A DNA stretch of 64,000 nucleotides from an uncultured Candidatus Saccharibacteria bacterium (GTDB lineage Bacteria > Patescibacteriota > SOKK01): NCBI GenBank assembly GCA_964518965.1, contig CAZFJP010000015.1, positions 13,314 to 77,313 of the forward strand. Reading direction: 5' to 3'. Shown one piece after another: positions 38,148 through 64,000 of the stretch. Position numbers and translations under genes: made by a program. The notes under the pieces were generated by a model. That model saw only the letters and a program-made list of their open reading frames with translations. It ran no database searches and was not told the DNA's origin. Positions within the stretch are counted from its first letter, which is position 1. Every line of letters begins with the position of its first letter.

Positions 38148-41100
38148 ATGCAAGTCCCTCGCATTTTTAAACTGAAACGACTGGGGTTAATCGTTACCCT
38201 AAGTGTTTTAGTGCTCTTTGTATTGCAGGCCTCTTTGTTTCCCCAAATTTTGGCTCTTGCTACTCCCGGTGTCAATCCGGAGGTTATCACTACCGACCCC
38301 GGTAATGGTTCAACCGATGTTGAGCCCGATACTAATATCGCAGTTGTTTTCAATGAACCAATGGATCCTAATTCCTTCAATGATCGTAATGTGATCTTGA
38401 ATGGGAGTGTTAGTGGTGGACCTTTGGGTCGATCTTTGAGTATCAATGGTACTCTTCTCACAATTGATCCTGATAACAACTTTGCTCTAGGTGAAACAGT
38501 TACTGTTTTAATTGTTGGTGGCACAGGTCCCAATGCCGTTCGGGATATTGAGGGGGAACCGATGCTTAATAATTACCAGTTCTCTTTTAGGATTTTGAAT
38601 GATCAAACTCCGCCCAATCCTCCGACTAATTTACAGGCAACTGGTCATGATGGTTATGTTGACTTAACCTGGAATCTTTCTAGTTCCCCAGATGTTGTTG
38701 GTCAAACGATTTATCGCTCCCTTTCAAGCGGAGGTCCCTATACTGCTTTGGAGGGAGTAGGCCGGGATGTTACTACTTATCGTGATTCTGCGGTAACCAA
38801 TGGCACTACCTATTATTATGTGATTACTGCTCGCGATAAAGCAGGTAATGAAAGTGCTTATTCCAATGAAGCAACCGCAACTCCAAGTGTCTCTGATACT
38901 AATCCTCCTTATTGTCGTAACTTAAATCCAGTCCCGGGTGCGCAGAATGTCCCGACAGATACCAATATTTACTTGGAAATTTGGGATGATCAAAGTGGTG
39001 TTGCGCGTCGTTCGATTAATCTGACCGTTGAGGGGCAAGATATTATTGTGAATGGTGCGATTCAACCTGGCTTTAACGTTACTTTGAATTCGATTGGCCC
39101 ATTGCCGAATGGTTTTGCGATTGACTATGATCCATCGGTGAACTTTAATGAGTATCAGAACATTAATGTTGACATAACTGCCTTTGATCGCTCACCACTG
39201 CGGAACCAAATGAGTTATAGTTACGCTTTCCGCATTGCGGATTCAACTCCTCCTTATACTGACAATTACAATCCTGCTCCCGGTCAGGCCGGTGTTCCTG
39301 TCAACAGCAATGTGGTTTTTGAGATTCACGACACCGGAAGTGGTGTGAACCGCAATTCTATTCGCGTTGATGTTGAAGGTACTGTTTATCGTGCAGGGAT
39401 TCCTGGTTTTAGCACGGTAAATTTACCCGATGGCTATCGAGTCACGATTAATCCCGCTTCTAACTTCCCTTATAGTACCCAGATTGATGTTGCTATTGAT
39501 GCACGGGACGATGCTGGTAATGTGATGCCGACTTTTAATTATTTCTTTACAACTGCCTCTGCTGATGATACTGAACCACCTTATGTTACTAACTTAAATC
39601 CGGCTCCGACTCAAACTGGCGTTCCTGTTAATACTAACATTTACTTTGAAATTTTGGACAGCGGCACTGGTGTTGATTTAAACACGGTTGATTTGATTGT
39701 AGAAGGCACTACTATTATTAGTAATGGTGTTGTGCAACCTGGTTACAATGTTACCATCAATGCGATTGCGCAAGGATTTAGTTTTGACTACGATCCTTCC
39801 GCTAACTTTAACGAGTATCAGACTGTTAATGTGACGGTAAGGGCTTCTGACCTTGCTTCTACTCCAAACTTCATGCAGTATGACTACTGGTTTAGAACCG
39901 GAGATTTAACTCCTCCGTATGTGAACGGTCGCGTACCTGCCGATGGAGATATTAATGTTCCCGTTGATACCAATGTCGTGTTCCATGTTTTAGATGATGG
40001 TTCCGGAGTGAATATCTTAACGGTTGTGGCTATCGTTGATGGCACTGTTTATCGCTTTGGTATCCCCGGATTTAGCTTTGCTGGCACACCAGCTGACTAC
40101 ACGATTACTATTGATCCTGCTTCTAATTTCCCTTACAATACCGTTATTCCGGTTGCCATTGACGCGATGGATGTTGAGGGTAACGTAATGGCAACGGATA
40201 ACTATAGCTTTACCACTGAACCGACAGCGGATACTGAACCACCTTACGTTCAGAATCTTAATCCGGCTCCGGGTCAGACCAATGTTCCGGTGAATACTAA
40301 TATTTATCTGGAAGTCGTTGACGATGACAGTGGTGTTGATGTGAATACTATTGACTTCACTGTTGAAGGTAGTTTGATTGTTGACGACGGTGTGGTTCAA
40401 CCGGGCTATACAGTTGCTCTTAATCCAATCGCTAACGGCTATTCATTAGATTATGATCCATCTGTGAACTTTAATGATTACCAGCAAGTGGATGTAACTA
40501 TTAGTGCTTCTGACCTTGCTCCGGTTCCCAACAGTTTCTCTTATAATTATTTCTTCCGCACCAACGATACTAATCCTCCTTATACTAATGGCTACAATCC
40601 TACCCCGGGTGATATTAATGTTCCGGTCAATACTGATGTGGTCTTCCATGTTTTGGATGATGGTTCAGGTGTTAACTTAATGACCGTTGCGGCAAACGTC
40701 AATGGTGTTCTTTATGCCAATGGCATCCCCGGATTCAGTTTTGTGGGTACTCCCGCGGATTACACTATTATCATTAATCCTGCGACTAATTTTCCTTATA
40801 ACACTGTTATCCCGGTCACTCTTTACGCTACCGACTTAGATGGTAATGTAATGACCCCTTTCAGTTATAGCTTTACTACGGAAACCGGCGCTGATTTGCT
40901 TCCTCCTTATGTTCAAAATGAAAATCCGCAGCCGGGTGAAGTAAATGTCCCGCGCAATACGAACATTTACTTTGAAGTTGTTGATGATCAAAGCGGTGTT
41001 AATCTCGGTAGTGTTGATGTTACTGTAGAAGGAAACTTAATTGTTGATGATGGCGTTGCTCAACTTGGCTATGCAGTGACAATTACTCCGATTGCGAATG

Positions 41101-42359
41101 GTTATAGTTTTGACTATGATCCGAGTACGGACTTTGCTTATGGTCAGGTAGTAGATGTTTCCATTGATGCGGCTGACAATGCCACTCCACCGAATGTCAT
41201 GGCAACTTACAACTATAGCTTCACGATCATTAATGTTAACGACACTACTGCTCCAGTTGTTCAAAATGAGAATCCGGCTCCCGGTGCTATCAACGTTCCG
41301 GTGAACACTAATGTTTATTTGGAAATTGTTGATGCTGGCACTGGCGTTGATCTCAATACGGTTAATATTACTGTTGAGGGAGCGACTATTGTTGTAAATG
41401 GTGTTGTCCAGCCGGGCTATACTGTTGCAGTAAATCCAATTGCTAATGGTTACAACTTTGACTATGATCCGACAGTGGATTTCCCGGCCAATGCGACGAT
41501 TAACGTTTCTGTTGATGCGGCGGACCTGATGACTCCGCCTAATGTGATGCCAACCTATAATTATAGCTTTGATACTTTAGATACCATTCCTCCGCAACTT
41601 GCTTTGGTTAATCCGAGCGATCCGGATAATGGCGCCACTAATGTCCCGGTTACTTCCAATATTACTTTCCGCTTTAACGAAGCAATGAACCAAGGTACTT
41701 TAGGTGCTGACACTGTTGTTACAACCGGTAGTGTTTCTGGTACAATTGGCGGTACCTTCACCACTACTGCAACTAGTGTTACTTTCAACCCGACAAACAA
41801 TTTTGTTGCGGGTGAAGTGATTACTGCTACGGTTAACACGAATGCGCAGGATTTAGCGGGCAATGGTTTAGACGGTGATCGCGATGGTGTTGCTGAAGGT
41901 TCTCCGGTAGATGATTACACAATCAGCTTTACCGTTGCTGCGGCAGGGGATACTACTCCGCCCAATGCTCCCGTGGTAATTAGTCCCGCTGATGGTGAAG
42001 TGATTACCGATAATACCCCGATGATTTTTGGTACCGCTGAAGCTGGCAGTGATGTTTCCATCTACGTTGATGATGTAGAAGTCGTTACTACTCGTGCGGA
42101 TAGTAATGGTAACTTTATCTATACGATGACCCAAGAACTTGACCGTGGTGAGCACACTGTTTATGCTTATGCGACTGATGCTGCTGGTAATCGCAGTGCT
42201 CGTTCTAATGTAAACACCTTTATTGTTGATACTGGTTCTATTTTAGGTGCAATAACTGGTGCTACTGGTGGTAACTGGTTGTGGATTTCTTTGATTCTTG
42301 CCTTCCTTGCAGCATTGGGCTTTGTTACTATTAGAGCATTTGCCAAAGTAAGGCAGTAA
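38148..42359 (+). CDS. giant cell-surface protein with about 10 tandem bacterial Ig-like domains, FN3-like region and C-terminal TM anchor
   Basis: 1403 aa. Signal peptide, then a recurring about 105-aa unit (PPY..N.NP.PG...VP.NTNIY.E..D..SGV....I...VEG...) also repeated at the nucleotide level, SbsA/Big_5-like. The C-terminus LWISLILAFLAALGFVTIRAFAKVRQ is a membrane anchor. Confidence 0.75.
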   Translation: MQVPRIFKLKRLGLIVTLSVLVLFVLQASLFPQILALATPGVNPEVITTDPGNGSTDVEPDTNIAVVFNEPMDPNSFNDRNVILNGSVSGGPLGRSLSINGTLLTIDPDNNFALGETVTVLIVGGTGPNAVRDIEGEPMLNNYQFSFRILNDQTPPNPPTNLQATGHDGYVDLTWNLSSSPDVVGQTIYRSLSSGGPYTALEGVGRDVTTYRDSAVTNGTTYYYVITARDKAGNESAYSNEATATPSVSDTNPPYCRNLNPVPGAQNVPTDTNIYLEIWDDQSGVARRSINLTVEGQDIIVNGAIQPGFNVTLNSIGPLPNGFAIDYDPSVNFNEYQNINVDITAFDRSPLRNQMSYSYAFRIADSTPPYTDNYNPAPGQAGVPVNSNVVFEIHDTGSGVNRNSIRVDVEGTVYRAGIPGFSTVNLPDGYRVTINPASNFPYSTQIDVAIDARDDAGNVMPTFNYFFTTASADDTEPPYVTNLNPAPTQTGVPVNTNIYFEILDSGTGVDLNTVDLIVEGTTIISNGVVQPGYNVTINAIAQGFSFDYDPSANFNEYQTVNVTVRASDLASTPNFMQYDYWFRTGDLTPPYVNGRVPADGDINVPVDTNVVFHVLDDGSGVNILTVVAIVDGTVYRFGIPGFSFAGTPADYTITIDPASNFPYNTVIPVAIDAMDVEGNVMATDNYSFTTEPTADTEPPYVQNLNPAPGQTNVPVNTNIYLEVVDDDSGVDVNTIDFTVEGSLIVDDGVVQPGYTVALNPIANGYSLDYDPSVNFNDYQQVDVTISASDLAPVPNSFSYNYFFRTNDTNPPYTNGYNPTPGDINVPVNTDVVFHVLDDGSGVNLMTVAANVNGVLYANGIPGFSFVGTPADYTIIINPATNFPYNTVIPVTLYATDLDGNVMTPFSYSFTTETGADLLPPYVQNENPQPGEVNVPRNTNIYFEVVDDQSGVNLGSVDVTVEGNLIVDDGVAQLGYAVTITPIANGYSFDYDPSTDFAYGQVVDVSIDAADNATPPNVMATYNYSFTIINVNDTTAPVVQNENPAPGAINVPVNTNVYLEIVDAGTGVDLNTVNITVEGATIVVNGVVQPGYTVAVNPIANGYNFDYDPTVDFPANATINVSVDAADLMTPPNVMPTYNYSFDTLDTIPPQLALVNPSDPDNGATNVPVTSNITFRFNEAMNQGTLGADTVVTTGSVSGTIGGTFTTTATSVTFNPTNNFVAGEVITATVNTNAQDLAGNGLDGDRDGVAEGSPVDDYTISFTVAAAGDTTPPNAPVVISPADGEVITDNTPMIFGTAEAGSDVSIYVDDVEVVTTRADSNGNFIYTMTQELDRGEHTVYAYATDAAGNRSARSNVNTFIVDTGSILGAITGATGGNWLWISLILAFLAALGFVTIRAFAKVRQ

Positions 42360-42437: not shown

Positions 42438-42920
42438 TTAATCCATCTTCTCCGGACTGATCATAATTCTTCTTTCCGCACCTTCTCCGATACTTTCTGA
42501 CTTCACGCCATCCTTGCCTTTAATAAAAAGATGAACAATTCTTCGTTCGTACGGTGGCATCGGGCGAAGGATAACTGGCTTTTGGGTACGTGCAACTTGA
42601 CTTACTGCTTCTTCTACGATCTTTTTTAATGCTTCTTCTTGTTTTTCACGATAGTTGCTGACATTAACGACGATGGGAATCAATCTGGTGATTTTTTTCT
42701 TCAAAATTAGGCGGATGATATGCTGGAAAGCAAGAAGTGATTCGCCGTGCCAACCGATGATTAATCCGGAATCTTCTTCTGTTTCAGGAATAATTTTTAA
42801 AAGATAAGGAGCATCTTTTTGTGCTTGGCATTCGGTTTTTACTTTAATGCCAAGTTTATCAAATAAGCTCTCGGTTTCTTTTTTGATGATGGAAATTTCT
42901 TGCTCTTGAGTAGTAGCCAT
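42438..42920 (-). CDS. Jag/KhpB-like RNA-binding protein (KH plus R3H domains)
   Basis: 160 aa. C-terminal R3H-like region ERRIVHLFIKGKDGVKSESIGEGAERRIMI. Conserved position downstream of yidC. Confidence 0.75.
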   Translation of the reverse strand: MATTQEQEISIIKKETESLFDKLGIKVKTECQAQKDAPYLLKIIPETEEDSGLIIGWHGESLLAFQHIIRLILKKKITRLIPIVVNVSNYREKQEEALKKIVEEAVSQVARTQKPVILRPMPPYERRIVHLFIKGKDGVKSESIGEGAERRIMISPEKMD

Positions 42921-43001
42921 TAGTTATTCTCTTTAATCCACCTTCGTTCCGCTTCGCGGGACTTCGGCGGATGTCGCCTTTAGTAAATAATTTAATATAA
43001 G

Positions 43002-43748
43002 TTACTTTTGAGTTCTCGGCTCCAGTTTAGAAATATTAGTTTTTCTCATAATCAGCCACTGTTGGAGAATTGCCATTAGGGTGGTAACAATCCAGTAGAG
43101 AGGAAGACCAGCAGGCAAGGTCATCGCGAAAAACACGGTAATTAAAGGCATAAAGTAGACCATTTGTCCGCCCATAACTTTTTCCATGGGGTTTTGTTTC
43201 TGGTCTTCCGTCTTGGGTTTATTTTTCATTAACATCTTGGTCTGGATGAACTGAAAAACACCGGCGAGAATCGGTAGGACAAAACGGTCAGGTTTAGAAA
43301 GGTTTAGAATTCCTAGAAAGGAAGGGTTAATTGTGCCAGGATTATGAATGAAGGGATAAAGTGTATCCAAATGATTAGAACCCATTGCGTCACGGAGGAC
43401 TTGGTACAAGGCAATTAAAAATGGCAACTGAATTAACATCGGCAGACAACTTCCCAAAGGATTGATTTTATTTTCCTGGTAAAACTTCATTATTTCTTGA
43501 GCTTGTTTTTCTTTGTTATCTTTATGCTTGTTCTGAATTGCTTTCAATTGCGGTTGCAAGTCCTGCATTGCTTTTTGGGATTTAATTGATTTTTGGGAAA
43601 GTGGCCACATAATCATGCGCAGAACAATTGTCAAAATAATGACTGCAATTCCAATGTCATGACCAGGGATAATATTATATAAAAATACCAGAAAATTAAA
43701 AATCGGGCGGTAGAAACCTTCGTTCCAGATGATAGATAAGATTGACAT
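43002..43748 (-). CDS. yidC: membrane protein insertase YidC (short, Gram-positive/CPR type)
   Basis: 248 aa. Five-TM YidC/Oxa1 core with conserved motifs (PLYWIV, GCLPMLIQLP). Confidence 0.85.
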   Translation of the reverse strand: MSILSIIWNEGFYRPIFNFLVFLYNIIPGHDIGIAVIILTIVLRMIMWPLSQKSIKSQKAMQDLQPQLKAIQNKHKDNKEKQAQEIMKFYQENKINPLGSCLPMLIQLPFLIALYQVLRDAMGSNHLDTLYPFIHNPGTINPSFLGILNLSKPDRFVLPILAGVFQFIQTKMLMKNKPKTEDQKQNPMEKVMGGQMVYFMPLITVFFAMTLPAGLPLYWIVTTLMAILQQWLIMRKTNISKLEPRTQK

Positions 43749-45321: not shown

Positions 45322-46731
45322 CTATTTAGTATAATAATATCCCCATTTTTCACCTGCCCCTGTCCAACTTGAAAGGGAACAGGTACGGGTAACATTTTCT
45401 TGTTTACTTTTCCCACGGCCATTCGGATCGGAAGGATCCATTACGGTCATTTGATTACCGCTAACTCCGATGACAAGGACTGAGTGAGGTTGCCCCTGAA
45501 GATTACTGTGGGCGCTAATATCTCCAGCGGGATTAGCATAAATCCCGACCGCATGTCCGGCAGACACTGCTTGGATTAATTCTGATTCCGAATTAACAGA
45601 TACTAATTTAACTCCATAAAAACTCGCAGCAGCCTGTTGTCCTCCCATTCCAAAACCCCAACTTCCTTTGGCGTTACAAAGTTTTTGGGCTAGTTGCTCT
45701 GGGTCAGTATCAATACCAATTGATCTTAAAGCCATTGCGCCAGTTGTCACGGTACAACCAGTTTGACCAATTGTTCCATAGCTTCCACAATAAACCTGGG
45801 AACCCCACGGAGGATCTGTTTGATTAAGATAAGTATTTCCAGCGACACCTCTGCCAATTCCACCCCCTCCACCACCCGTAATCAATAAAACTGGAACAAT
45901 AATCACTAACAAAAATAAAATAATTCCTCCGCAGCCAGTTGTTCCCAATGCACCAGTAATAAGGCAACCTAGACATCCCCATTTTAACCGTTTCTTTCCT
46001 TTTTTTGCCGCTTCTCTAGCTTCAATCTCTTCTTCAGAAAGTCCTTCTTCGCGAGCTCTTTCTACTTTTTCTTCAATTTTTTTCTTTTTCTCTTCTATTT
46101 TTTGCGCTTCTTTTAATCCAGGGATCTGTCCCTTGACTTTTTTACCAACTTCTTCTACTTTCTTACCTACTTCTTCGGCTTTCTTTGCGGCTTCCTTTGC
46201 TGTTTGGGCAGCTTCTTTCCCTGCTTTCCCTGCCGCTTCTGCAGCTGCGCCAACTTTCTCTTGTACTTCGCCAGGAATTTGCCCTACTGCTCCACCAACT
46301 TTCTCACCAATTTCCGCTCCTTTTTCAGCGCCGGTAGCTGCGCCTTCGGCAGCGCCAGCAACCGCGCCAGGAATTGCACCAACGCCTCCAGCGGCCGCTC
46401 CCTTAATTGCGCCTGTTACTGCTCCTCCTACAGCGCCAGCAGCTCCGCCAACTGCTGCTCCTGCTGCGGCTCCTCCCGCTTTGCCAACAGCTTCTCCTGT
46501 TTCCTTAGTAACAGGAGCAGTTTCCTTGAGTGCTTTTCCACCTGCTTCTACTCCTTTGGCACCTAGTTCAGCACCTTTTGCTCCTACTTCAGCTGCTTTG
46601 GCAGCACCTTGTCCTACTCGCCCGGCAGTTTGAGCAGCTTGACCCGTTCCCTTTACTTTTTCACCAATATCCTCCCTTTCAGTAGCAGGTTGTGATTCTC
46701 CTTCAGGTTTTCTCTCGTCTTCCCCCGCCAT
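45322..46731 (-). CDS. membrane protein: Ala/Gly/Lys/Glu-rich cytoplasmic region, TM helix, extracellular papain-like (C39_2-like) peptidase domain
   Basis: 469 aa. The low-complexity N-terminus (about 260 aa) gives a local GC rise. The TM helix is GGIILFLLVIIVPVLLITGG. The C-terminal domain is YLNQTDPPWGSQVYCG...QTGCTVTTGAMAL...QPHSVLVIG...MDPSDP, a Q..C..H..D/N arrangement as in Peptidase_C39-like domains. Confidence 0.5.
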   Translation of the reverse strand: MAGEDERKPEGESQPATEREDIGEKVKGTGQAAQTAGRVGQGAAKAAEVGAKGAELGAKGVEAGGKALKETAPVTKETGEAVGKAGGAAAGAAVGGAAGAVGGAVTGAIKGAAAGGVGAIPGAVAGAAEGAATGAEKGAEIGEKVGGAVGQIPGEVQEKVGAAAEAAGKAGKEAAQTAKEAAKKAEEVGKKVEEVGKKVKGQIPGLKEAQKIEEKKKKIEEKVERAREEGLSEEEIEAREAAKKGKKRLKWGCLGCLITGALGTTGCGGIILFLLVIIVPVLLITGGGGGGIGRGVAGNTYLNQTDPPWGSQVYCGSYGTIGQTGCTVTTGAMALRSIGIDTDPEQLAQKLCNAKGSWGFGMGGQQAAASFYGVKLVSVNSESELIQAVSAGHAVGIYANPAGDISAHSNLQGQPHSVLVIGVSGNQMTVMDPSDPNGRGKSKQENVTRTCSLSSWTGAGEKWGYYYTK

Positions 46732-55636: not shown

Positions 55637-58099
55637 ATGAAAGCAGGGCCAGAAGGGACTAAGATGATAAAGAAGGGATACATTTTAAAAGTAGGATTAT
55701 TTTTGGTCCTGCTTTTTTGTTGTCTTTTTCTTTTTACCGCCAGTGTTGAGGCGAAAAATTTAAATGTTCCTTTGTTTAATCAATTGGATAGCCGCTGGGC
55801 GAGTGTCAAACTTGGCTTCAGTAATTTGACTATTGGTGGATATGGTTGCGCGCTTACTTCCAAGGCAATGGTTTTTAATTACTATCTGCCGAATTTTACT
55901 GATCCTAAGCGGTTAAATAGCTATTTGAAAAATCACAACGGCTATGTTTCCAGCGGTTTGATCAAGTGGAATAATTGCGGTACACCAAGTGGAGTAAGTT
56001 ACGGCGGAAGTGTTCCAATCAGTCGTTCAGTGATTAGCCAGAAGCTCAATCAAGGTTCTCCTTTAGTCGGACAGGTTTATAAAGTACGGATGCCGATGCA
56101 TTTTGTTGTTTTGACTGGCGAGAGTGACGATAATTTTCTCATTAATGATCCCTGGCAAGGGATAAAGACAAGTTTAGAAAAAAGAAATTATCATTTGGTA
56201 CGCGCACATCTTTATCAGAAGAAGGGAAAAACCTATGTTTATAATCCGCCAGTGAAAAAATCTTCCTCTTTACGAATTACCAAAGGTCTTTGGCTGAAAA
56301 GTTACACTAAAGCGTATGTGGGTGAACCATTTGATGCGCAATTCACGGTCAAAAATTTTAGTGGCAAGAAAGTTTGTCTTAAAAATCTTACTATTTTTGT
56401 CCGCGGACCCAAGGGGCAAAATTTTGATTTCAGAGGTAGTGGCAAAATTGCTCTTAGGCCCAAGCAAAGTTATTTTTTGTTTCGTAAAACAAGTCATCTT
56501 GGTCGCCGTGGGATAGTTGGTACTTATACTTTCAGTTGTAGTTACCAAGATCTGGACGGTTGCTGGCGTTTGCTCACTGCCCAGAGAGGTACTACTAATA
56601 AGCGAAAATTGAGAGTGGTTGATCGTATGCGACCTCAATTGCCTCCCTCGACACAGAAACTTTTCCAAATTGAAGAAGATTTTGATAATGAGAACCAAAT
56701 TGATGATAAAGATAAAGTGCGAATTGAAGATAGTAAAGTAATGTTAGATTCTTGGCAAAAAGTTTTTTCAATTCAGACAAAGAAGGATTTTGAAATGGGA
56801 AGTTTTGATGGAGTCTATTTTGATGAACAAAAACAAGGCTTAAGAATTAAAAATCCGCAGATTAAAATTTTACAAATCTATCCTCCCAATCACAATAAGG
56901 ATTTACTTGCTCAAATTATTCGTCAATATGCTCCTGATCCCAAAATTTTTTCAGTCAGTTCGGTTTCGATTCGCAACTTTAACCAAAAGAAATTTGATAA
57001 TGGAAGAGTTCTAGATCTTAACCACTTTAATCTTCTCTATTTTGGTGTGGCTGACGTTTACGGCAGTAATCCCCCGCGCTGGACAAACGATCTTAATGCA
57101 ACTGGTGAAAGTTTAGTACGCCAGTTTCATACTCAAGGCAAAGGAATCGTTTTTACACATGATACTTTAGGGGCAGGCAGTCCTTGCTGGCTGAAGCATA
57201 ATTACTTTAATCGATTAAGGGATATTACTGGCATTACTACGGATGTAACTTTGGGTAAATGGAAAGAGTTTCGCACGGTTAATCGTAATTCTGCTATTAA
57301 TCCGAATCATCCGATGTTAAATTATCCCTTTGCGATTCCTGCCCAATTTCCGGTAATTCATACGCATCGTCTTTATCAAAAAGTAATTGCGGGGGAGGTT
57401 TTTGCCTATGGTCAAACACCCACTGATTTGTATTGGCAGGCATTTAAAAACTCTACTTTTTTCTCCTACGGCAATGTAGAACAAATGCCTTTAGAATGGG
57501 AGGGAGAAGCATTGATTAATACTCTCTTCAACACTTATCAGGGAGGGAGTTATTTCTCGCCGATTTTTGATAGTCAGTCTAGTCAGGGAAAAATTTTCAC
57601 AAATTTTGTGACGGAGGATCAAAATCCATTAACTGATCTAGAAATTAATCTTCGTTTTGGGAATCATTCCTTGGTAGATAATGGTTGGAGTGATTGGATG
57701 AAAGTGACTCATGGCCAAAAGATTATAAAACAGGGCCGTTTTTTTCAATATCAAGTTAAAATGAGAAGCGCTAATCTTGCTCTTTCTCCAATTGTTAAGG
57801 AGGTAAAAATAACTTGTGATCCCCTTTTTTATCCTCAAGGTTCAGTTGTTTCTATCCCCTTTCATCCTAAGGGGATAACGAGCTGGTCTCATTTTGATTA
57901 CAATTGCAAGGGTGAGAGTGTTCGTTTTGATCTTTTAGAAGGGAATACTAATAATGTTTTAATTGCGGATTTAAAAAGAAATCAGGATCTTTCTAAGATT
58001 AGTTTTGGTGTTCCGTTGAAAGTTAGAATTTCTTTCATAACTGATGATTTCTTGCAAAGTCCGGAAGTAGATTGGTGGAAGATTTTTTATTACCAGTAA
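55637..58099 (+). CDS. large secreted protein with N-terminal Peptidase_C39-like papain-fold domain
   Basis: 820 aa. Signal/TM, then NVPLFNQLDSRWASVKLGFSNLTIGGYGCALTS...MHFVVLTG...NDPWQG (Q/C/H/D order of C39-like peptidases). Large beta-rich C-terminal region of unknown function. Confidence 0.5.
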   Translation: MKAGPEGTKMIKKGYILKVGLFLVLLFCCLFLFTASVEAKNLNVPLFNQLDSRWASVKLGFSNLTIGGYGCALTSKAMVFNYYLPNFTDPKRLNSYLKNHNGYVSSGLIKWNNCGTPSGVSYGGSVPISRSVISQKLNQGSPLVGQVYKVRMPMHFVVLTGESDDNFLINDPWQGIKTSLEKRNYHLVRAHLYQKKGKTYVYNPPVKKSSSLRITKGLWLKSYTKAYVGEPFDAQFTVKNFSGKKVCLKNLTIFVRGPKGQNFDFRGSGKIALRPKQSYFLFRKTSHLGRRGIVGTYTFSCSYQDLDGCWRLLTAQRGTTNKRKLRVVDRMRPQLPPSTQKLFQIEEDFDNENQIDDKDKVRIEDSKVMLDSWQKVFSIQTKKDFEMGSFDGVYFDEQKQGLRIKNPQIKILQIYPPNHNKDLLAQIIRQYAPDPKIFSVSSVSIRNFNQKKFDNGRVLDLNHFNLLYFGVADVYGSNPPRWTNDLNATGESLVRQFHTQGKGIVFTHDTLGAGSPCWLKHNYFNRLRDITGITTDVTLGKWKEFRTVNRNSAINPNHPMLNYPFAIPAQFPVIHTHRLYQKVIAGEVFAYGQTPTDLYWQAFKNSTFFSYGNVEQMPLEWEGEALINTLFNTYQGGSYFSPIFDSQSSQGKIFTNFVTEDQNPLTDLEINLRFGNHSLVDNGWSDWMKVTHGQKIIKQGRFFQYQVKMRSANLALSPIVKEVKITCDPLFYPQGSVVSIPFHPKGITSWSHFDYNCKGESVRFDLLEGNTNNVLIADLKRNQDLSKISFGVPLKVRISFITDDFLQSPEVDWWKIFYYQ

Positions 58100-58202: not shown

Positions 58203-59609
58203 ATGCAAGAGGAAATTGGTGGAGAAAAACCCAACACCTATCGCATTCATCCTGACCGATTGGATTTTAGCAGTGCAGAAAAATTTTCTTCTAAACCAGA
58301 GCAGATAATCAGCAAGACTTCTTCTTCCGAGGAAGCAAATGAGCCAGAAGAGGAGAATCTTGAATGTGAGCGTTTTGAGATGGGAGTTGGAAAAAGAGTG
58401 GAAGAAGCAAGGGATTCTTTAGAAAGGGAAGAAGTTGAATCCGAAGAAACCAAAGGAGCTTATCAGGAGTTCTTGGAGGTTAAGGAGCAAGCGGAAAATC
58501 AGTATCGCTTAATGGGGTATTGGGGCTCCTTGAGAAGAGTTTTGAGGAACGATCGAGAAGGACTTGAGAAAGCAATTAATGAAGCGGAAAAAACTAGCCC
58601 TGCTTATTATCAGAAGGTTAAAAATGATCTTGTTGGTTATCTAGAAAGAATCCAGGAAGAATATTCTGTAGCGCGCACGCGCGAAAGAGAAGCACGGGAA
58701 AAACTTTGGGCGAAAGACGGGTTGGTTGATCAAGCAGTTGAAAAATATTCTCATTACCTTGAATCAAAAGGTGAAAAACCTGATCTCTCGCAAATTAGAC
58801 AAGATCTTTATGAGCAGTTCTTTGAAGTGGCCTTGGAAGAAGGAATGTCAGGAGTGAGAGTAAAAATTATGCCAGAAGAGAAAGAAACTTCTGATGATAG
58901 TAACAAGCAAGAGCCACTGATGCTAGAGGAGAAGGTTGAGCAAGAGCAGAAGAAGAGAGAATTAATTTCTTGGCTTAGCAAACAGCGCTGGCTTAAACGT
59001 TTGGTTTTGGGCATTGGAGTAGCAATAGGCGCGCTTGGTGTCGGGAAATTACTTCAGTCTCGCAGCACTGAAATTCAGGAAGAAGCGAAAACTGTTATGC
59101 TTTCAACTCAAGATTTAGTAAGAGATTTAGAAAACTTTATTCGTGAAAATTTGCTGGGACAAAAGCAAGCAGTTTCAGAGAAAATTATACAAGAAGGGAC
59201 TCAACATACGGCTGAGGGAAGAGTGGAAAAGAAAGCGGAAAAAGTTTCTACAGAAAAATCGGCAGAGAAGGAAAAAGAGCGAGTTTTAGATCGTCGTCCT
59301 GTTTTCTTACGTGATAAAGAAATGATTAAGAAAGAGGATAAGTTTGTTGATGAGTTTTTGAAAAAGGATTTCAAGAACCGCGATCGCTTTAAATATCTAA
59401 CTGCCCGGGAACTTAAAGAAATTAGAGATGGAGGACCATTGCCATCCCATCGTTTGTATAAGTACTTTGAGGATGATTACCAAAAGGAGTACGAGGCACT
59501 ACGTCGTTTTGCCAAAGAGCTTAGTCCCCAACTGGAGGAATCAGAACGTTTGGGGAAATTAGATCGAGATAAAGTGTACTATTTAATTGATCTTCATCTT
59601 CATTCCTAA
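58203..59609 (+). CDS. charged coiled-coil-rich hypothetical protein with one central TM helix
   Basis: 468 aa. Glu/Lys-rich, TM LVLGIGVAIGALGVGKLL at about residue 270. Confidence 0.35.
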   Translation: MQEEIGGEKPNTYRIHPDRLDFSSAEKFSSKPEQIISKTSSSEEANEPEEENLECERFEMGVGKRVEEARDSLEREEVESEETKGAYQEFLEVKEQAENQYRLMGYWGSLRRVLRNDREGLEKAINEAEKTSPAYYQKVKNDLVGYLERIQEEYSVARTREREAREKLWAKDGLVDQAVEKYSHYLESKGEKPDLSQIRQDLYEQFFEVALEEGMSGVRVKIMPEEKETSDDSNKQEPLMLEEKVEQEQKKRELISWLSKQRWLKRLVLGIGVAIGALGVGKLLQSRSTEIQEEAKTVMLSTQDLVRDLENFIRENLLGQKQAVSEKIIQEGTQHTAEGRVEKKAEKVSTEKSAEKEKERVLDRRPVFLRDKEMIKKEDKFVDEFLKKDFKNRDRFKYLTARELKEIRDGGPLPSHRLYKYFEDDYQKEYEALRRFAKELSPQLEESERLGKLDRDKVYYLIDLHLHS

Positions 59610-59626
59610 ATTGAATTAAGAATTTT

Positions 59627-59947
59627 ATGTTGGAAGTTCAAAATAAAAACCAAACCAACTTATTCAAAGAATTAGGATTGACTAATTTATCAGATTCAAA
59701 AAAGAAACTGCTTTTGGGAAAATTTTTTCAGGCGGTGCACTTGAAGGTGGCTGAAAGAGTACTGGACTTTTTAACTGCCAAAGAACAAAAGCAGTTAGAG
59801 AATCTTTATCGAAGCAAAGCAGGTGAAGTTGAAGTTAAGAATTTTTTAAAAGCAAAGGTCCCTAATTTAGAGTTAATTACAAAAGCGGAAACTCATGCTT
59901 TAGTCGCGGCTTTGAAGCGGCAGGTAACTCGGTTTTACTTAAATTAG
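59627..59947 (+). CDS. hypothetical protein
   Basis: 106 aa, coupled to the upstream gene. No motif. Confidence 0.3.
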   Translation: MLEVQNKNQTNLFKELGLTNLSDSKKKLLLGKFFQAVHLKVAERVLDFLTAKEQKQLENLYRSKAGEVEVKNFLKAKVPNLELITKAETHALVAALKRQVTRFYLN

Positions 59948-60083: not shown

Positions 60084-61412
60084 ATGAAGGTTTACTTCAA
60101 AGTTTTTAGTGTCGCTTTGGTTTTACTTGTCTTTGTTGCAGCCCTGACAGGTTGTGGCTGCAAACAAACAAGTAAAAGTAAGATTGATACCAAAGAAAAA
60201 ATTAACCTTACTTACTGGCGACTTTTTGATGATCGGGAATCAGTTCAACCGATTATTGATGAGTATCAGAAATTACATAAGAACATCACTATTACTTATA
60301 AGAAGTTTGCTTATGACGGCTACGAACAGCAGGCAATTGATGAGTTGGCGGCAGGAAAAGGTCCGGACATTTGGATGATTAAGAATGATTGGGTACCACG
60401 GCATAAAGATAAATTAACGCCGATGCCGGAAGATATGATGAATGCTGAAACTTATCGTACTACTTTTATGGATGTTGCTAAGGACGATTTTGTTATTGAT
60501 AACCGTATTTATGGCATTCCTCTTTCGGTTGATTCGTTAGCACTTTTTTACAACAAAGATCTTTTTAATAAAGCGGGAATTAGTCAGCCACCGGCGACTT
60601 GGGATGATATGATTAAAGTTGTACCAAAGTTGACGAAACTTTCTGGTAATACTGTTAATCAGTCAGCAATTGCTCTTGGTACTGCGGATAATATTAGCTC
60701 GGCAGTTGATATTGTTTCTTGGTTAATGATGCAGAATGGCGCCGCGATGATTGATGAAGCAAAGGAACAAGCAATTTTCAATGCTCGCAGTAAAACTGAA
60801 AACAACCAAACCTATTATCCTGGCGTGAGCGCGGTGGAATTTTATTCTAGCTTTGCGACTCCTTCCAAACAAACTTATTCTTGGAATACGGGCATGCCAA
60901 ATAATATTGATGCTTTCCTGGATGGCAAAGTGGCAATGGTTTTAGCTCCTTCCCACCAAGTAAAATTACTACAGGTAAAAGCGCAATCCAAGACACCAAA
61001 GCTAAACTTTGATGTTGCTCCTGCGCCTCAAATTAAAGATGGCATTACGGTAAATGCTGCAAGCTACTGGGGGGAAGTGGTTTCTAAGAATTGTCAGCAC
61101 CCGGAGGTCGCTTGGGACTTTCTCAATTTCTTGACTGGTAAGGGAAATATGAAAAAGTATCACCAGTCAACCCAGAGACCGCCCAGTCGCAAAGATTTAG
61201 TGGAGGAGTTTTCAGGGGAACAATATTATGGCATTTTCACCGTGCAAGCATCTTCTGCAAGAAGTTTTTATAAGATTGATAATCGGGAGGTAGACAAAAT
61301 TTTCTTGGCAATGATTCGCAGTGTTAATAATGGTGAGAAGCCTAAAGATGCAGTGGATAGAGCAGCACAGGAAGTGACCAAGTTAATGAGCGGGCAGAAG
61401 GCGGGGGGGTAA
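60084..61412 (+). CDS. ABC transporter extracellular solute-binding lipoprotein (family 1, sugar-type)
   Basis: 442 aa. Lipobox LTGCGC, SBP-1 length and motif pattern (GPDIWMIKNDW, DSLALFYNKDLF). Confidence 0.75.
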   Translation: MKVYFKVFSVALVLLVFVAALTGCGCKQTSKSKIDTKEKINLTYWRLFDDRESVQPIIDEYQKLHKNITITYKKFAYDGYEQQAIDELAAGKGPDIWMIKNDWVPRHKDKLTPMPEDMMNAETYRTTFMDVAKDDFVIDNRIYGIPLSVDSLALFYNKDLFNKAGISQPPATWDDMIKVVPKLTKLSGNTVNQSAIALGTADNISSAVDIVSWLMMQNGAAMIDEAKEQAIFNARSKTENNQTYYPGVSAVEFYSSFATPSKQTYSWNTGMPNNIDAFLDGKVAMVLAPSHQVKLLQVKAQSKTPKLNFDVAPAPQIKDGITVNAASYWGEVVSKNCQHPEVAWDFLNFLTGKGNMKKYHQSTQRPPSRKDLVEEFSGEQYYGIFTVQASSARSFYKIDNREVDKIFLAMIRSVNNGEKPKDAVDRAAQEVTKLMSGQKAGG

Positions 61413-61708
61413 TGAATGATCATAGGGAATTACATACAACGATGATCTTCTGTAAGAAGGGGCGCGTCTATGGCACGTCCCTACTTTTAAATATAAATCT
61501 CCACCATGCCATGTCACGTACAGCATGGCACTCTTGTCTTTAATAAGAGGTAAAAACGCTTTACAAGGCCTTATTTTTGTGTTATAATTAAGTAACCGGG
61601 TACTACGATAGGGCACCCCGGCGTCACTGCGAACCATAATTGCTCGTAGTGTTGCGTAATATTTATAATATCCCGCCAATTTATTTTTAATATCGGACGA
61701 AGGGAGTT

Positions 61709-62206
61709 TTGAACTTCTCCTTTGAGTATATGCGTAGAGTGAAAAAGAGAAACAAACATAAAACATCTGTCAGAGACAAGTCCACCTTTTGGGCCTTAGA
61801 CTCATCAATCTCTGGCCGAGGTGGGAAAAATGGTCTTGGCTTTTATTTAGCATTAACCTGTTTGGTTTTGGGAATCCTGCTTTCATTAACAGTAGGATTT
61901 TTTGTTGTCTTTAATTATGTTGCTTCTAGCAGTGCAGCGGATTATGTTCCTGGTTCCGGCAATGTCCGCGGGGTTACTTTAACGCAATATATTATTAGTA
62001 TTTATAACTATGCTGCTAGTATTATCGGTTTACTAGCAGTAATTGTGATTATTATCGCTGGTTATCGTTATATGGGAGCAATGGGGAATCCGCAATATAT
62101 TGCGGAAGCGAAGGCGATGGCAATGGGGGCAATTGCGGGATTAGTTTTGGTGATTCTTTCTTATTTAATTTTATCCACGCTTAACCCCGCGACGGTTAAA
62201 TGGTAA
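61709..62206 (+). CDS. VirB2/TrbC-like small pilin paralog 1
   Basis: 165 aa (start uncertain; alternative ATG at 61730). The C-terminus IIGLLAVIVIIIAGYRYMGAMGNPQ...AKAMAMGAIAGLVLVILSYLIL is shared with paralogs 2-6. Confidence 0.5.
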   Translation: MNFSFEYMRRVKKRNKHKTSVRDKSTFWALDSSISGRGGKNGLGFYLALTCLVLGILLSLTVGFFVVFNYVASSSAADYVPGSGNVRGVTLTQYIISIYNYAASIIGLLAVIVIIIAGYRYMGAMGNPQYIAEAKAMAMGAIAGLVLVILSYLILSTLNPATVKW

Positions 62207-62213
62207 AATAACG

Positions 62214-62561
62214 ATGAAGAAACAGAAGTTATTTACGACAATTTTGGCGAGTGTGGTTCTCTTGGTTTTATCAGCACCGACAGTTTTTGCAGCTATTGGT
62301 TTTAATACTAATCCAGCGACGGTAAATATTTATGATTTTCGTAAACTTCTGGTAAATATTATTAACTGGCTACTTGGTTTTGCTGCGGTTGCAGCAACTG
62401 CAATTATCATTGTTGGCGGATACAATTGGCTTGCTTCTGGTGGTAATTCCGAAAGAATTGAGAATGGCAAGAAGATTATTACTGGTGGAATTATTGGTTT
62501 AGTGATGATTATTTTAGCAGCGGTGTTGGTGAATACGATTATTGCAGTTTTAGGGAAATAA
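62214..62561 (+). CDS. VirB2/TrbC-like small pilin paralog 2
   Basis: 115 aa. Signal peptide ...PTVFA, then two hydrophobic helices around IIIVGGYNWLASGGNSERIENGKKIITGGIIGLVMIILAAVLVN. Confidence 0.6.
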   Translation: MKKQKLFTTILASVVLLVLSAPTVFAAIGFNTNPATVNIYDFRKLLVNIINWLLGFAAVAATAIIIVGGYNWLASGGNSERIENGKKIITGGIIGLVMIILAAVLVNTIIAVLGK

Positions 62562-62575
62562 ACGAAAAACGAAAA

Positions 62576-62980
62576 ATGAAAAACGCAAAACAAATCTTAA
62601 AATTATTCTCGATACTGATTTTGGGAATTGTTTTTTCTTTTTCTTTGTTACCAGTTCTCCCAATAGGTCAGCAAGGATTAATTTTGGCCGCTGATAATTC
62701 TAGCACTAAACTTGGTTTTGGTTCTGGTAGTTTACCGAATCAGTCTAAGGTGAGCGACGTTCGCGGGTTGATTTCTATTATTATCAATGCAATGCTAAGC
62801 ACAGTAACCGCAGTCGCAGTAATTTTTATCATCATTGGTGGTTATCAATACATTGGTTCGGGTGCCAGTGAGGATATGAAAGCGAAAGCGAAAAAGACCT
62901 TAACTTGGGCAATTTCTGGCTTAATTGTCATTATTCTCGCGGCCGTGTTGGTGAATACTTTAATTGGGGTATTTAAATAA
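62576..62980 (+). CDS. VirB2/TrbC-like small pilin paralog 3
   Basis: 134 aa. Signal peptide, IFIIIGGYQYIGSGASEDMKAKAKKTLTWAISGLIVIILAAVLVN. Confidence 0.6.
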   Translation: MKNAKQILKLFSILILGIVFSFSLLPVLPIGQQGLILAADNSSTKLGFGSGSLPNQSKVSDVRGLISIIINAMLSTVTAVAVIFIIIGGYQYIGSGASEDMKAKAKKTLTWAISGLIVIILAAVLVNTLIGVFK

Positions 62981-62996
62981 AGGATATCGTAAGTAA

Positions 62997-63362
62997 ATGA
63001 GAAAAATCGCGAAAATTTTAATTTGCCTAGTTACTTTTACTACGATTTTTATCGCTGGTAATAGTTTGGCGGTTGATCCAGTTACCCAAGGCGATGTCGG
63101 AAGTAATATTCCTACTGCCTCTAATCCTTCTGCTCCCTTCTCTGACCAATTAGCAATGGTTTTGAATATTCTCTTAGCATTGGCATCTACTGTTGCAGTA
63201 TTATTTATTATTATCGGCGGTTATACTTACATTACTTCTGCCGGTAATCAAGATCGCCAAAAGAAAGCGAAGGAAGTGTTGATTGGAGCAATTGTTGGGC
63301 TGGTGATTATTATTCTTTCCTTCGGTGTCGTTAACTTTATTAATGAGTTTTTAGCAAGATAA
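62997..63362 (+). CDS. VirB2/TrbC-like small pilin paralog 4
   Basis: 121 aa. Signal peptide ...GNSLA, LFIIIGGYTYITSAGNQDRQKKAKEVLIGAIVGLVIIILSF. Confidence 0.6.
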   Translation: MRKIAKILICLVTFTTIFIAGNSLAVDPVTQGDVGSNIPTASNPSAPFSDQLAMVLNILLALASTVAVLFIIIGGYTYITSAGNQDRQKKAKEVLIGAIVGLVIIILSFGVVNFINEFLAR

Positions 63363-63721
63363 TGAGAAATTTTTTCTTAAAAGTTATTTTGGTTCTAGAA
63401 TTAATGTTGGGAATTTCCTCGCCTGCTTTTGCAGCATTAAAAACTCCCAGAGCAGTGGAAAGTGCTTTAAGTGTCTTGCCGAGTATGTTTGATCCGGAAG
63501 TAACAATTGCTGATATTGCCAACTGGCTTTTAGGACTTGCAGCTACTGTTGCAGTGCTTTTGATTATTATTTCTGGCATCCGCTATATCGTTTCCTCGGG
63601 AGAACAGGAGCAGATTCAAAATGCGAAAATCACTCTACGTTATGCGATCATTGGTTTGGTAGTTACGATTTTGGCAATTGTGGTGGTTAATATTGTGCGT
63701 AATATCCTCGGTGCTGATTAA
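63362..63721 (+). CDS. VirB2/TrbC-like small pilin paralog 5
   Basis: 119 aa. Start overlaps the previous stop. Signal peptide ...SSPAFA, LLIIISGIRYIVSSGEQEQIQNAKITLRYAIIGLVVTILAIVVVN. Confidence 0.6.
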   Translation: MRNFFLKVILVLELMLGISSPAFAALKTPRAVESALSVLPSMFDPEVTIADIANWLLGLAATVAVLLIIISGIRYIVSSGEQEQIQNAKITLRYAIIGLVVTILAIVVVNIVRNILGAD

Positions 63722-63736
63722 TCTTTAATCTTCTTC

Positions 63737-64000
63737 ATGAAAAAGAATTGGTTTTCTCAATTAGTACTTATTGGAGGTTTGTTCCTTTTGTGGGTAACGC
63801 CAGTTTTGGCAATTAAAGAACCTTCTTCCAGAATTGAAGATCTTCCTCGCCAAAGTACTCTTATTCCTACTATCGTTACAATAATTCTTTGGGCGATGGT
63901 TTATGCATTTGCTCTTGCAGTTTTGTTTATTGTTGTTGCTGGAATTATGTATATCACTGCAGCGGGTAATAGTGATCTAATGGAAAAAGCGAAGAAAGTT
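63737..64000 (+). CDS. VirB2/TrbC-like small pilin paralog 6 (3' truncated by window end)
   Basis: MKKNWFSQLVLIGGLFLLWVTPVLA signal peptide, LFIVVAGIMYITAAGNSDLMEKAKKV.. continues beyond the window. Confidence 0.55.
   Translation, partial: MKKNWFSQLVLIGGLFLLWVTPVLAIKEPSSRIEDLPRQSTLIPTIVTIILWAMVYAFALAVLFIVVAGIMYITAAGNSDLMEKAKKV

What the first reader, a model, noticed from the sequence alone, without database searches (positions are those of the whole stretch)
61709..64000. Tandem array of at least six paralogous VirB2/TrbC-like small pilin genes
Six consecutive, tightly coupled ORFs (gaps -1 to +16 nt) each encode a signal peptide followed by two hydrophobic helices. They share the loop motif (A/G)G(Y/I)xY(I/M)xS(G/A)(G/A/N)...AK...AI.GL..IIL...VN. 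The N-terminal mature regions are divergent.

This is the VirB2/TrbC-type architecture of conjugative or type-IV-secretion pilins seen in Gram-positive and CPR genomes. A six-fold or larger array suggests subunit heterogeneity or antigenic/host-range variation of an extracellular filament. The array runs off the window end, so the partner T4SS genes (VirB4/VirB6/VirD4-like) may lie just downstream.
Basis: partly seen in the sequence, partly recalled or inferred. Interest (0 to 1): 0.7.

Follow-up and report, generated by a model that had tools for sequence, protein, structure and literature searches.

The report
Nine-gene VirB2-like pilin operon (Patescibacteria)
The six small genes are real and are the first six of a nine-gene operon of VirB2-like type IV secretion pilins, an arrangement already described in the ultrasmall Patescibacteria (CPR), so this is a good new example of a known feature, not a new one.

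Summary
Six same-strand ORFs lie at 61730-64000, with gaps of -1 to +16 nt. The five complete ones pass the Pfam T4SS_pilin (PF18895) cut-off, and one also passes TrbC/VirB2.

An identical metagenome contig (L001) extends the window. It shows nine paralogues in all, with a near-consensus promoter upstream and a strong terminator after gene 9. Both signals are conserved in relatives.

There are no T4SS genes in the 64-kb window, which is the dnaA origin region. Three relatives carry VirB6-like, PrgI/VirB3-like, TrsD-like and VirB4 genes directly after the same nine-gene array.

All nine paralogues have 1:1 positional orthologues in four genomes: 42-87% identity to the orthologue against 25-46% between paralogues. 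dN/dS is 0.06-0.26. This points to old, non-redundant subunits, not recent amplification or variant cassettes.

Such arrays are already published for Patescibacteria: 441 arrays of 2-11 genes (PMC12102498), and an essential array in Southlakia epibionticum (PMC10633639).

Whether these proteins form a pilus is still unproven.

The parts
61507..61530 (+). Terminator-like hairpin after the upstream solute-binding-protein gene (60084-61412). It separates that gene from the pilin operon.
   Evidence: L001 479-502; window coordinate = L001 + 61028. The SBP_bac_8/SBP_bac_1 assignment is.
61560..61588 (+). Sigma-70-type promoter TTTACA-17 nt-TATAAT with a TG extended -10. It lies about 140 nt upstream of gene 1.
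   Evidence: It matches 11 of 12 consensus positions and is the best site in the locus. The -35, the TG and the -10 are conserved in four relatives while the flanking DNA has diverged. The 5' UTR shows no significant fold (z=0.09). Promoter activity itself is inferred.
61730..62206 (+). Pilin paralogue 1 (158 aa; the maximal ORF starts at TTG 61709). It has a long basic N-terminal tail, a roughly 35-aa hydrophobic leader, and then the two-helix pilin core.
   Evidence: PF18895 38.9 bits. Hydrophobic segments at 33-67, 87-119 and 124-156. Orthologues are 65-87% identical. Core dN/dS is 0.06-0.09.
62214..62561 (+). Pilin paralogue 2 (115 aa).
   Evidence: PF18895 41.6 bits and PF04956 TrbC/VIRB2 31.4 bits, both above cut-off. 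Orthologues are 60-70% identical.
62576..62980 (+). Pilin paralogue 3 (134 aa). It has the most divergent N-terminal region.
   Evidence: PF18895 45.0 bits. Orthologues are 42-64% identical. N-terminal dN/dS reaches 0.52.
62997..63362 (+). Pilin paralogue 4 (121 aa).
   Evidence: PF18895 37.9 bits. NCBIfam Mbov_0395 pilin-like 39.7 bits, just under its cut-off of 40.
63362..63721 (+). Pilin paralogue 5 (119 aa). Its start overlaps the stop of gene 4 by 1 nt.
   Evidence: PF18895 51.0 bits. The AlphaFold2 model has a leader helix at 2-18 and a helical hairpin at 49-77/82-117 with pLDDT above 90.
63737..64000 (+). Pilin paralogue 6, cut by the window end (the full gene is 126 aa and would end at 64117). 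It is the most divergent member.
   Evidence: The full-length protein from L001 scores 22.6 bits on PF18895, below the 26.6 cut-off. It matches the family profile built without it at E=2e-19. Beyond the window lie genes 7-9 at 64121-64510, 64642-65028 and 65176-65520, followed by three hairpins (z=-7.1). The last hairpin is an intrinsic terminator at 65601-65628.

Best explanation
The six ORFs are the first two-thirds of a nine-gene operon of VirB2/TrbC-like (Pfam T4SS_pilin) propilins. The operon belongs to the chromosomal, monoderm-type (MPF-FATA-related) type IV secretion system of a Patescibacterium (CPR) and lies about 36 kb from dnaA.

Shown:
- Family membership.
- Nine contiguous paralogues.
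- A conserved promoter upstream and a conserved terminator after gene 9.
- Three hydrophobic segments per protein, and a confident two-helix hairpin model.
- 1:1 orthology of every paralogue across four genomes, under purifying selection.
- T4SS genes directly downstream in three syntenic relatives.

Inferred:
- The genes are co-transcribed.
- Each product is inserted by Sec/YidC and its leader is cut at an AxA site.
- The mature two-helix hairpins are extracted from the membrane by the VirB4/VirB6/VirB3-like machine.
- They then polymerise into a T4SS-associated pilus or cell-wall-spanning tube. By analogy with F and T pili, the conserved GG-Y-S-GN...AK loop would face the lumen and the divergent N-termini would be exposed.
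- Because each of the nine is kept as a distinct, conserved orthologue, they most likely play fixed, non-redundant roles (major, minor, tip or base subunits, or a heteropolymer). Interchangeable variants are less likely.
- The structure would serve contact with, or exchange with, the host bacterium.
For: - Family: PF18895 is above cut-off for genes 1-5 and 7-9, and PF04956 is above cut-off for gene 2. There are exactly nine profile hits and all are in the array.
- Taxon: every homologue that carries a source name with an organism is from Patescibacteria, Parcubacteria or Falkowbacteria.
- Extension: contig L001 is 100% identical to the window over 2,972 bp and carries genes 6-9.
- Operon signals: a conserved promoter and a conserved terminator with compensatory changes.
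- Orthology: 42-87% identity to the positional orthologue against 25-46% to paralogues. Nine genes are present in every complete array.
- Selection: dN/dS is 0.06-0.26 for whole genes.
- T4SS linkage in relatives: VirB6/TrbL-like, PrgI, TrsD-like and VirB4. The VirB4 scores 362.7 against a cut-off of 325 on NCBIfam conju_CD1110.
- This genome: VirB4 orthologue P0147 (87% identical to the L010 VirB4) is listed with a longest contig of 87,808 bp. Every window protein looked up carries the same value.
- Fold: a helical hairpin with pLDDT above 90.
- Literature: 441 VirB2 arrays of 2-11 genes in Patescibacteria, and T4SS genes often near dnaA (PMC12102498). The pilin array is essential in S. epibionticum (PMC10633639; PMC12857230).
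Against: - The 64-kb window contains no VirB4, VirB6, VirB3 or VirD4 gene.
- In this organism the 549 nt after the terminator differ from the relatives' PEMT-like gene, and two independent contigs stop there. Adjacency of the T4SS genes in this genome is therefore inferred and was not seen. The VirB4 look-up returned nothing.
- Structural searches cannot tell this hairpin from any other helical hairpin. The PDB sequence match to VirB2 is not significant on its own (E=0.17).
- No T4SS pilus has been observed in any Patescibacterium (PMC12857230, PMC11665869).
- dS is saturated (above 1), so the dN/dS values are rough.
- Leader cleavage was judged by eye and with a hydropathy script only.
Confidence: 0.65

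Rival explanations
1. The nine proteins are T4SS components but do not form an extended pilus. They stay in or just outside the cytoplasmic membrane as a short stalk or channel lining that spans the thin cell wall. This would be analogous to the pilus-independent, channel-related role proposed for VirB2 in Gram-negative systems.
For: Monoderm (MPF-FATA) T4SSs generally lack pili. No T4SS pilus has been seen in Patescibacteria, and reviews call the pilus only a possibility. Both core helices are long and very hydrophobic. The nearest NCBIfam model is a Mycoplasma ICE 'pilin-like' membrane protein.
Against: The proteins are homologous to bona fide pilus subunits. Nine conserved paralogues with divergent, presumably exposed N-termini are hard to explain for a buried channel part.
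Confidence: 0.2
2. The array is a repertoire of alternative pilins for antigenic or host-range variation, expressed one or a few at a time. This is what has been proposed for the multiple VirB2 paralogues of Anaplasma and Bartonella.
For: The N-terminal mature regions are only 17% identical between paralogues, against 36% for the core. They also evolve faster between species, with N-terminal dN up to 0.7. The published survey suggests this idea (PMC12102498).
Against: There is one conserved promoter and one terminator, with gaps of -1 to 16 nt among genes 1-7. Every paralogue has a 1:1 orthologue in four genomes at dS above 1, the copy number is constant at nine, and no paralogue pair exceeds 46% identity, so there is no sign of gene conversion or turnover. 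dN/dS is below 1 everywhere. The repeat scan shows no invertible or recombination repeats.
Confidence: 0.1
3. The proteins are unrelated small membrane proteins, such as holins, bacteriocin immunity proteins or other two-TM peptides. On this view the resemblance to T4SS pilins comes from hydrophobic composition alone.
For: The proteins are short and hydrophobic, and low-complexity TM helices can give spurious HMM hits. Several weak hits to unrelated membrane families appear.
Against: Eight of nine pass a curated Pfam cut-off, with E-values from 1e-9 to 1e-13. The conserved polar loop motif, with invariant G, K and G, is not a compositional effect. The array sits in conserved synteny with VirB4, VirB6-like, PrgI and TrsD genes in relatives. 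No holin or immunity family was hit.
Confidence: 0.03

Closest known systems
VirB2-like pilin arrays of Patescibacterial T4SS loci (Quinonero-Coronel et al. 2025, PMC12102498; the six-gene essential array of Southlakia epibionticum ML1, Wang et al. 2023, PMC10633639)
   Same: - Tandem PF18895/PF04956 genes.
- Low identity between paralogues: 25-46% here, against a published mean of 25% and maximum of 54%.
- A chromosomal location near dnaA.
- In relatives, a position next to VirB6-like, PrgI/VirB3, TrsD and VirB4 genes with no relaxase in view.
   Different: - There are nine genes, at the upper end of the published 2-11 range.
- The array is a separate transcription unit, with its own conserved promoter and terminator, upstream of the T4SS genes.
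- In relatives a PEMT/ICMT-like methyltransferase gene lies between the array and the T4SS genes.
- Strict 1:1 orthology and purifying selection of every paralogue are shown here. They are not discussed in PMC12102498.
- T4SS adjacency in this genome itself was not seen.
Classical conjugative/T4SS pilins: VirB2 (Agrobacterium T-pilus, PDB 8cue/8exh), TrbC (RP4), TraA (F)
   Same: - A small propilin with a leader.
- Two hydrophobic helices joined by a short polar or basic loop.
- A Pfam TrbC/VIRB2 match (gene 2 passes the cut-off).
- The best PDB sequence hit is VirB2.
- Gene 1 has a long leader, as VirB2, TrbC and TraA do (the leader lengths of those three are from my own knowledge).
   Different: - The host is monoderm.
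- There are nine paralogues where the classical systems usually have a single gene.
- Most paralogues have short, Sec-type leaders.
- The mature N-terminal extensions are longer and more variable.
- No VirB5, VirB7, VirB9 or VirB10 genes were found.
- There is no evidence for cyclisation, acetylation or lipid co-assembly.
Mycoplasma ICE conjugation module Mbov_0395 (pilin-like), Mbov_0396 (TM protein), Mbov_0397 (VirB4)
   Same: The order of weak NCBIfam matches in the relatives' cluster is the same: pilin-like (NF045849), MMCAP2_0566-like or VirB6-like, then VirB4. The cell envelope is monoderm.
   Different: All pilin scores are below the NF045849 cut-off (best 39.7 against 40). Mycoplasma ICEs have one pilin-like gene and are mobile elements. 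Here the array is chromosomal, multi-copy and conserved in synteny.
Multi-copy VirB2 paralogues of Anaplasma phagocytophilum and Bartonella
   Same: Several divergent virB2 copies lie in tandem, with variation concentrated in the exposed parts.
   Different: Those are diderm intracellular pathogens, and differential expression or antigenic variation is proposed for them. Here the evidence points to one operon and to ancient, individually conserved paralogues.

Membership tests
Pfam T4SS_pilin (PF18895) / TrbC-VirB2 (PF04956) pilins | Score at or above the curated HMM cut-off | tested here: met
   Genes 1-5 score 37.9-51.0 bits and genes 7-9 score 37.5-47.9 bits, against a cut-off of 26.6. Gene 2 also passes PF04956 (31.4 against 27.9). 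Gene 6 is below cut-off (22.6) but matches a family profile built without it at E=2e-19.
Pfam T4SS_pilin (PF18895) / TrbC-VirB2 (PF04956) pilins | An N-terminal leader followed by two hydrophobic helices joined by a short polar loop | tested here: met
   All nine proteins have three hydrophobic segments. AlphaFold2 gives a hairpin at 49-77/82-117 with pLDDT above 90. The loop motif has invariant G, K and G. Leader cleavage at AxA was read by eye only.
Pfam T4SS_pilin (PF18895) / TrbC-VirB2 (PF04956) pilins | Fold similarity to solved VirB2/TraA pilins | tested here: inconclusive
Pfam T4SS_pilin (PF18895) / TrbC-VirB2 (PF04956) pilins | Genetic linkage to VirB4, VirB6 and VirB3 genes | tested here: inconclusive
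   None of these genes is in the 64-kb window. They are present directly downstream in syntenic relatives L003, L007 and L010. VirB4 orthologue P0147 shares the contig length of 87,808 bp with the window proteins, but its locus could not be fetched.
Pfam T4SS_pilin (PF18895) / TrbC-VirB2 (PF04956) pilins | Polymerisation into an extracellular pilus (with phospholipid), and processing of the propilin | not testable with these tools
   This needs cryo-EM or cryo-ET, mass spectrometry and genetics. It has not been shown for any Patescibacterium.
Patescibacterial VirB2 pilin arrays (PMC12102498) | Two or more PF18895/PF04956 genes in tandem with low mutual identity | tested here: met
   Nine contiguous genes with 25-46% pairwise identity. 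The published range is 2-11 genes, mean 25% and maximum 54%.
Patescibacterial VirB2 pilin arrays (PMC12102498) | The host is a Patescibacterium, and the locus is chromosomal and often near dnaA | tested here: met
   Named homologues of the pilins, and the VirB4 of a relative, come from 'Patescibacteria group', Parcubacteria, Falkowbacteria and Doudnabacteria MAGs. dnaA-dnaN-recF lie at 24960-29006, where GC skew switches sign. The class within the phylum was not resolved, and no rRNA or tRNA genes are in the window.
Mbov_0395 family pilin-like conjugal transfer protein (NCBIfam NF045849) | Score at or above the curated cut-off of 40 bits | tested here: not met
   The best score is 39.7 bits (gene 4), and the others score 16-31 bits. 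The proteins are related to this equivalog but are not members of it.
   No such family appears among the Pfam or NCBIfam hits at E<=1. T4SS genes follow the array in relatives.

The most novel reading that the evidence does not exclude
The nine paralogues are obligatory, non-interchangeable subunits of one heteropolymeric, T4SS-driven pilus or conduit in a monoderm bacterium. Gene 1, with its long basic leader, would act as a membrane-proximal base or nucleator, and the others would occupy fixed positions or zones. This would be a level of subunit specialisation unknown for any conjugative-type pilus. Through this structure the epibiont would exchange material with its host. The PEMT/ICMT-like methyltransferase conserved next to the operon in relatives might modify the pilins or their bound lipid.
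Probability: 0.3. Interest if true: 0.65.

Novelty: new member of a known kind. Interest (0 to 1): 0.27.

Why it matters
The T4SS and its pilin array are essential for epibiotic growth in the one Patescibacterium studied genetically, and what they do is an open question. This locus does not open a new question. It does give a clean, well-delimited nine-gene example in which every paralogue is individually conserved across species. That argues for fixed structural roles over antigenic variation, and it offers a defined set of orthologue groups for structural work (heteromer modelling, cryo-ET) and for knock-down experiments.

Tried and rejected
- Direct recovery of the DNA downstream of the array in this organism failed. 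Look-ups of genes 5 and 9 gave only short contigs that end 549 nt after gene 9. An exact-pattern scan of JGI metagenomes with the tail sequence found nothing. The GTDB scan found only one distant locus at 32% identity.
- BLAST of the 549-nt tail against the window and all loci matched only the shared terminator.
- Rfam and tRNA scans of the window found nothing. The 5' UTR of the operon has no significant fold, so a riboswitch or leader RNA was dropped.
- Exact look-ups of window proteins returned no source names, so the taxonomic class could not be fixed. The supplements of PMC12102498 do not list the relatives' assemblies.
- The antisense ORF at 61383-61766 (127 aa) overlaps the promoter and the start of gene 1. 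It was not scanned for domains, and I judge it spurious on position alone.
- My crude SPase-site script printed uninformative internal sites. Only its hydropathy output was used.
Full report
**Observation**

The region 61709-64000 holds six consecutive + strand ORFs: 61709/61730-62206, 62214-62561, 62576-62980, 62997-63362, 63362-63721 and 63737->64000.

The five complete proteins all exceed the Pfam gathering score for PF18895 T4SS_pilin (37.9-51.0 bits against 26.6). Gene 2 also exceeds the cut-off of PF04956 TrbC/VIRB2 (31.4 against 27.9). The truncated sixth reaches 21.9 bits. NCBIfam gives only sub-threshold hits, to the Mycoplasma ICE 'Mbov_0395 pilin-like conjugal transfer protein' (best 39.7 against 40).

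**The array is nine genes long**

Contig L001 (ENA k141_96613, 5,041 bp) is 100% identical to the window over their 2,972-bp overlap, so window coordinate = L001 + 61028. It continues the array to nine genes. In extended window coordinates the remaining genes are:
- gene 6, 63737-64117
- gene 7, 64121-64510
- gene 8, 64642-65028
- gene 9, 65176-65520

Genes 7-9 pass PF18895. Gene 6 does not (22.6 bits). A profile built from 85 homologues that did not include gene 6 finds exactly nine hits among all six-frame ORFs of at least 50 aa in the 66-kb extended sequence. The E-values are 2e-19 to 2e-29, and all nine hits are the contiguous array genes.

**Anatomy of the proteins**

Each protein has an N-terminal hydrophobic segment and two long C-terminal hydrophobic segments.

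By eye, genes 2-9 have classic short Sec leaders that end in AxA-type sites: VFA|A, ILA|A, SLA|V, AFA|A, VLA|I, AYA|G, ALA|D and ALA|I. Gene 1 differs. It has a roughly 30-residue Lys/Arg-rich tail and a roughly 35-residue hydrophobic stretch before SSA|A. This is closer to the long leaders of classical propilins (those leader lengths are from my own knowledge). Its conserved start is the ATG at 61730, not the TTG at 61709.

AlphaFold2, run with an 85-sequence alignment, models gene 5 as a leader helix (2-18) plus a helical hairpin at 49-77/82-117 with pLDDT above 90.

Across 36 sequences (nine paralogues in four genomes) the core reads iIigG.rYi.s.Gn......AKkt..yAI.GL, with G72, K89 and G98 invariant. 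Paralogue identity is 36% in the core and 17% in the N-terminal part.

**Transcription unit**

A near-consensus promoter, TTTACA-17-TATAAT with a TG extended -10, lies at 61560-61588. It is the best match in the locus and is conserved in four diverged relatives, whereas the surrounding intergenic DNA is not.

The upstream solute-binding-protein gene (60084-61412) is followed by its own hairpin at 61507-61530.

After gene 9 there are three strong hairpins (-57 kcal/mol, z=-7.1). The last of them, followed by a T-run, is conserved with compensatory changes in all relatives.

The nine genes therefore look like a single operon. This is an inference from sequence signals, because there are no expression data.

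**Genomic context**

The window is the chromosomal origin region of a small-genome bacterium. It carries dnaA-dnaN-recF (24960-29006) at the GC-skew switch, yidC and jag, ruvABC, valS, tsaD, murJ, lepA, tilS, ftsH and uvrB.

The 64 kb contain no VirB4, VirD4, VirB6 or VirB3 gene. The VirB4 orthologue P0147 has no tblastn match in the window plus extension.

**Relatives**

Gene 9 has homologues at 77-85% and 65% identity. Four loci carry the same arrangement of solute-binding-protein gene followed by nine pilin genes: L003/L004/L005, L006 and L007. L010 holds only genes 8 and 9, because its contig starts within the array.

In L003, L007 and L010 the terminator is followed directly by these genes:
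- a PEMT/ICMT-like membrane methyltransferase
- two genes with no family match
- a roughly 690-aa TrbL/VirB6-like protein
- PrgI (VirB3-like)
- a TrsD/TraC-like protein
- a VirB4 ATPase, which passes NCBIfam conju_CD1110 at 362.7 against 325

This is the published Patescibacterial T4SS gene set (PMC12102498).

**This organism**

In L001 and L002 (two different samples) and in L006, the sequence after the terminator is different from the relatives, and the contigs end about 550 nt later.

VirB4 orthologue P0147 is 87% identical to the L010 VirB4. It is listed with a longest contig of 87,808 bp, the same value given for every window protein examined. The T4SS ATPase is therefore very probably on the same contig, in the roughly 21.7 kb outside the window plus extension.

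The first 10 kb to the left of the window (L013) carry only housekeeping genes. Together with the synteny, this favours a downstream position. I could not fetch that DNA.

**Evolution of the paralogues**

Each of the nine proteins is far closer to its positional orthologue in L006, L007 and L003 (42-87% identity) than to any paralogue (25-46%). The best hit is always the same position in the array. Copy number is nine in every complete array.

Nei-Gojobori dN/dS against L006 and L007 is 0.06-0.26 per gene. N-terminal regions evolve faster (up to 0.4-0.5) but stay below 1. dS is saturated, so these values are approximate. The repeat scan shows no recombination or inversion repeats.

The array is therefore old and stable, and each member is individually maintained. 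This fits distinct structural roles better than a set of exchangeable antigenic variants.

**Comparison with the literature**

Quinonero-Coronel et al. 2025 (PMC12102498) report:
- VirB2-like pilins (PF04956/PF18895) in 1,948 Patescibacteria assemblies
- 441 arrays of 2-11 pilin genes, with a mean identity of 25% and a maximum of 54%
- frequent placement of T4SS genes near dnaA

Wang et al. 2023 (PMC10633639) found the pilin series inside the T4SS cluster of Southlakia epibionticum to be essential. A 2025 review (PMC12857230) stresses that a pilus in a monoderm T4SS is still only a possibility. PMC11665869 calls the role of the T4SS 'completely unknown'.

The window's array fits this known kind in every tested respect. 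What this analysis adds is modest:
- the operon boundaries
- the strict 1:1 orthology and purifying selection of all nine members
- the odd first member with its long leader
- the conserved neighbouring PEMT/ICMT-like gene in relatives

**Limits**

- Fold searches were uninformative.
- The only PDB sequence link to VirB2 is weak (E=0.17).
- Leader cleavage, export, polymerisation and function are all inferred.
- The class within Patescibacteria was not resolved.

**Verdict**

The finding is a new member of a known kind, and its interest is low to moderate.

Noticed in passing
window 24960-29006 (dnaA, dnaN, recF); 42438-43748 (- strand: jag/KhpB, yidC): The window spans the chromosomal replication origin region. 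GC skew changes sign near 26 kb, next to dnaA. The pilin operon starts about 36 kb from dnaA, in line with the published origin-proximal placement of Patescibacterial T4SS genes.
   Followed up: partly
window 1757-8515, - strand: A block lies between ruvC (8519-8998) and ruvA/ruvB (151-1757). It holds four ATP-grasp (RimK-like / ATPgrasp_ST) paralogues, an amidohydrolase, and a PKD + 7TM_transglut membrane protein. This looks like a peptide-ligase cassette inserted into the ruv cluster. It is conserved in contigs L013 and L014.
   Followed up: no
window 38148-42359 (+), 45322-46731 (-), 55637-58099 (+): Three large predicted surface proteins lie here: a 1,403-aa protein with repeated Big_5 Ig-like domains, and two proteins with Peptidase_C39_2 domains (469 and 820 aa). 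The 820-aa protein lies upstream of the pilin operon in relative L006 as well.
   Followed up: no
L001 3483-3613 and 4001-4147 (extended window coordinates 64511-64641 and 65029-65175): In this organism the spacers between genes 7-8 and 8-9 are 131 and 147 nt long and fold into long hairpins (z=-3.6 and -2.3). In relatives the same spacers are only 2-54 nt. These may be small palindromic insertions or transcript-processing or stabilising elements.
   Followed up: partly
L001 4493-5041 (extended window coordinates 65521-66069); L006 10346-10902: After the operon terminator, this organism and relative L006 each carry a different, unmatched sequence that includes a roughly 80-aa ORF with no family match. 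The other relatives carry the PEMT-like gene at this position. Contigs from two independent samples (L001, L002) end at exactly the same base, which suggests a repeat or a strain-variable junction.
   Followed up: partly
L010 923-1582; L007 8339-8998; L003 10467-11150: In relatives, the first gene after the pilin operon is always a PEMT/ICMT-family membrane methyltransferase (219-229 aa). It lies between the pilins and the T4SS genes. It might modify a lipid or a pilin, but this is speculation. It is not mentioned in PMC12102498.
   Followed up: no
L010 3583-8916: The relatives' cluster gives weak NCBIfam matches in the same order as the Mycoplasma ICE genes Mbov_0395/0396/0397: pilin-like, MMCAP2_0566-like membrane protein, VirB4. 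This hints at a shared monoderm module that already included a pilin-like gene.
   Followed up: no
window 61383-61766, - strand: A 127-aa antisense ORF overlaps the pilin promoter and the start of gene 1. A gene caller annotated an 84-aa version of it in L001. It is most likely spurious.
   Followed up: no
window 58203-59947: Two genes lie here: a 468-aa Glu/Lys-rich protein with one hydrophobic segment and no family match, and a 106-aa protein whose L007 counterpart is annotated DUF5663. In L007 this pair sits directly upstream of the solute-binding-protein gene that precedes the pilin operon; L006 has a single unannotated 420-aa gene at that position.
   Followed up: no
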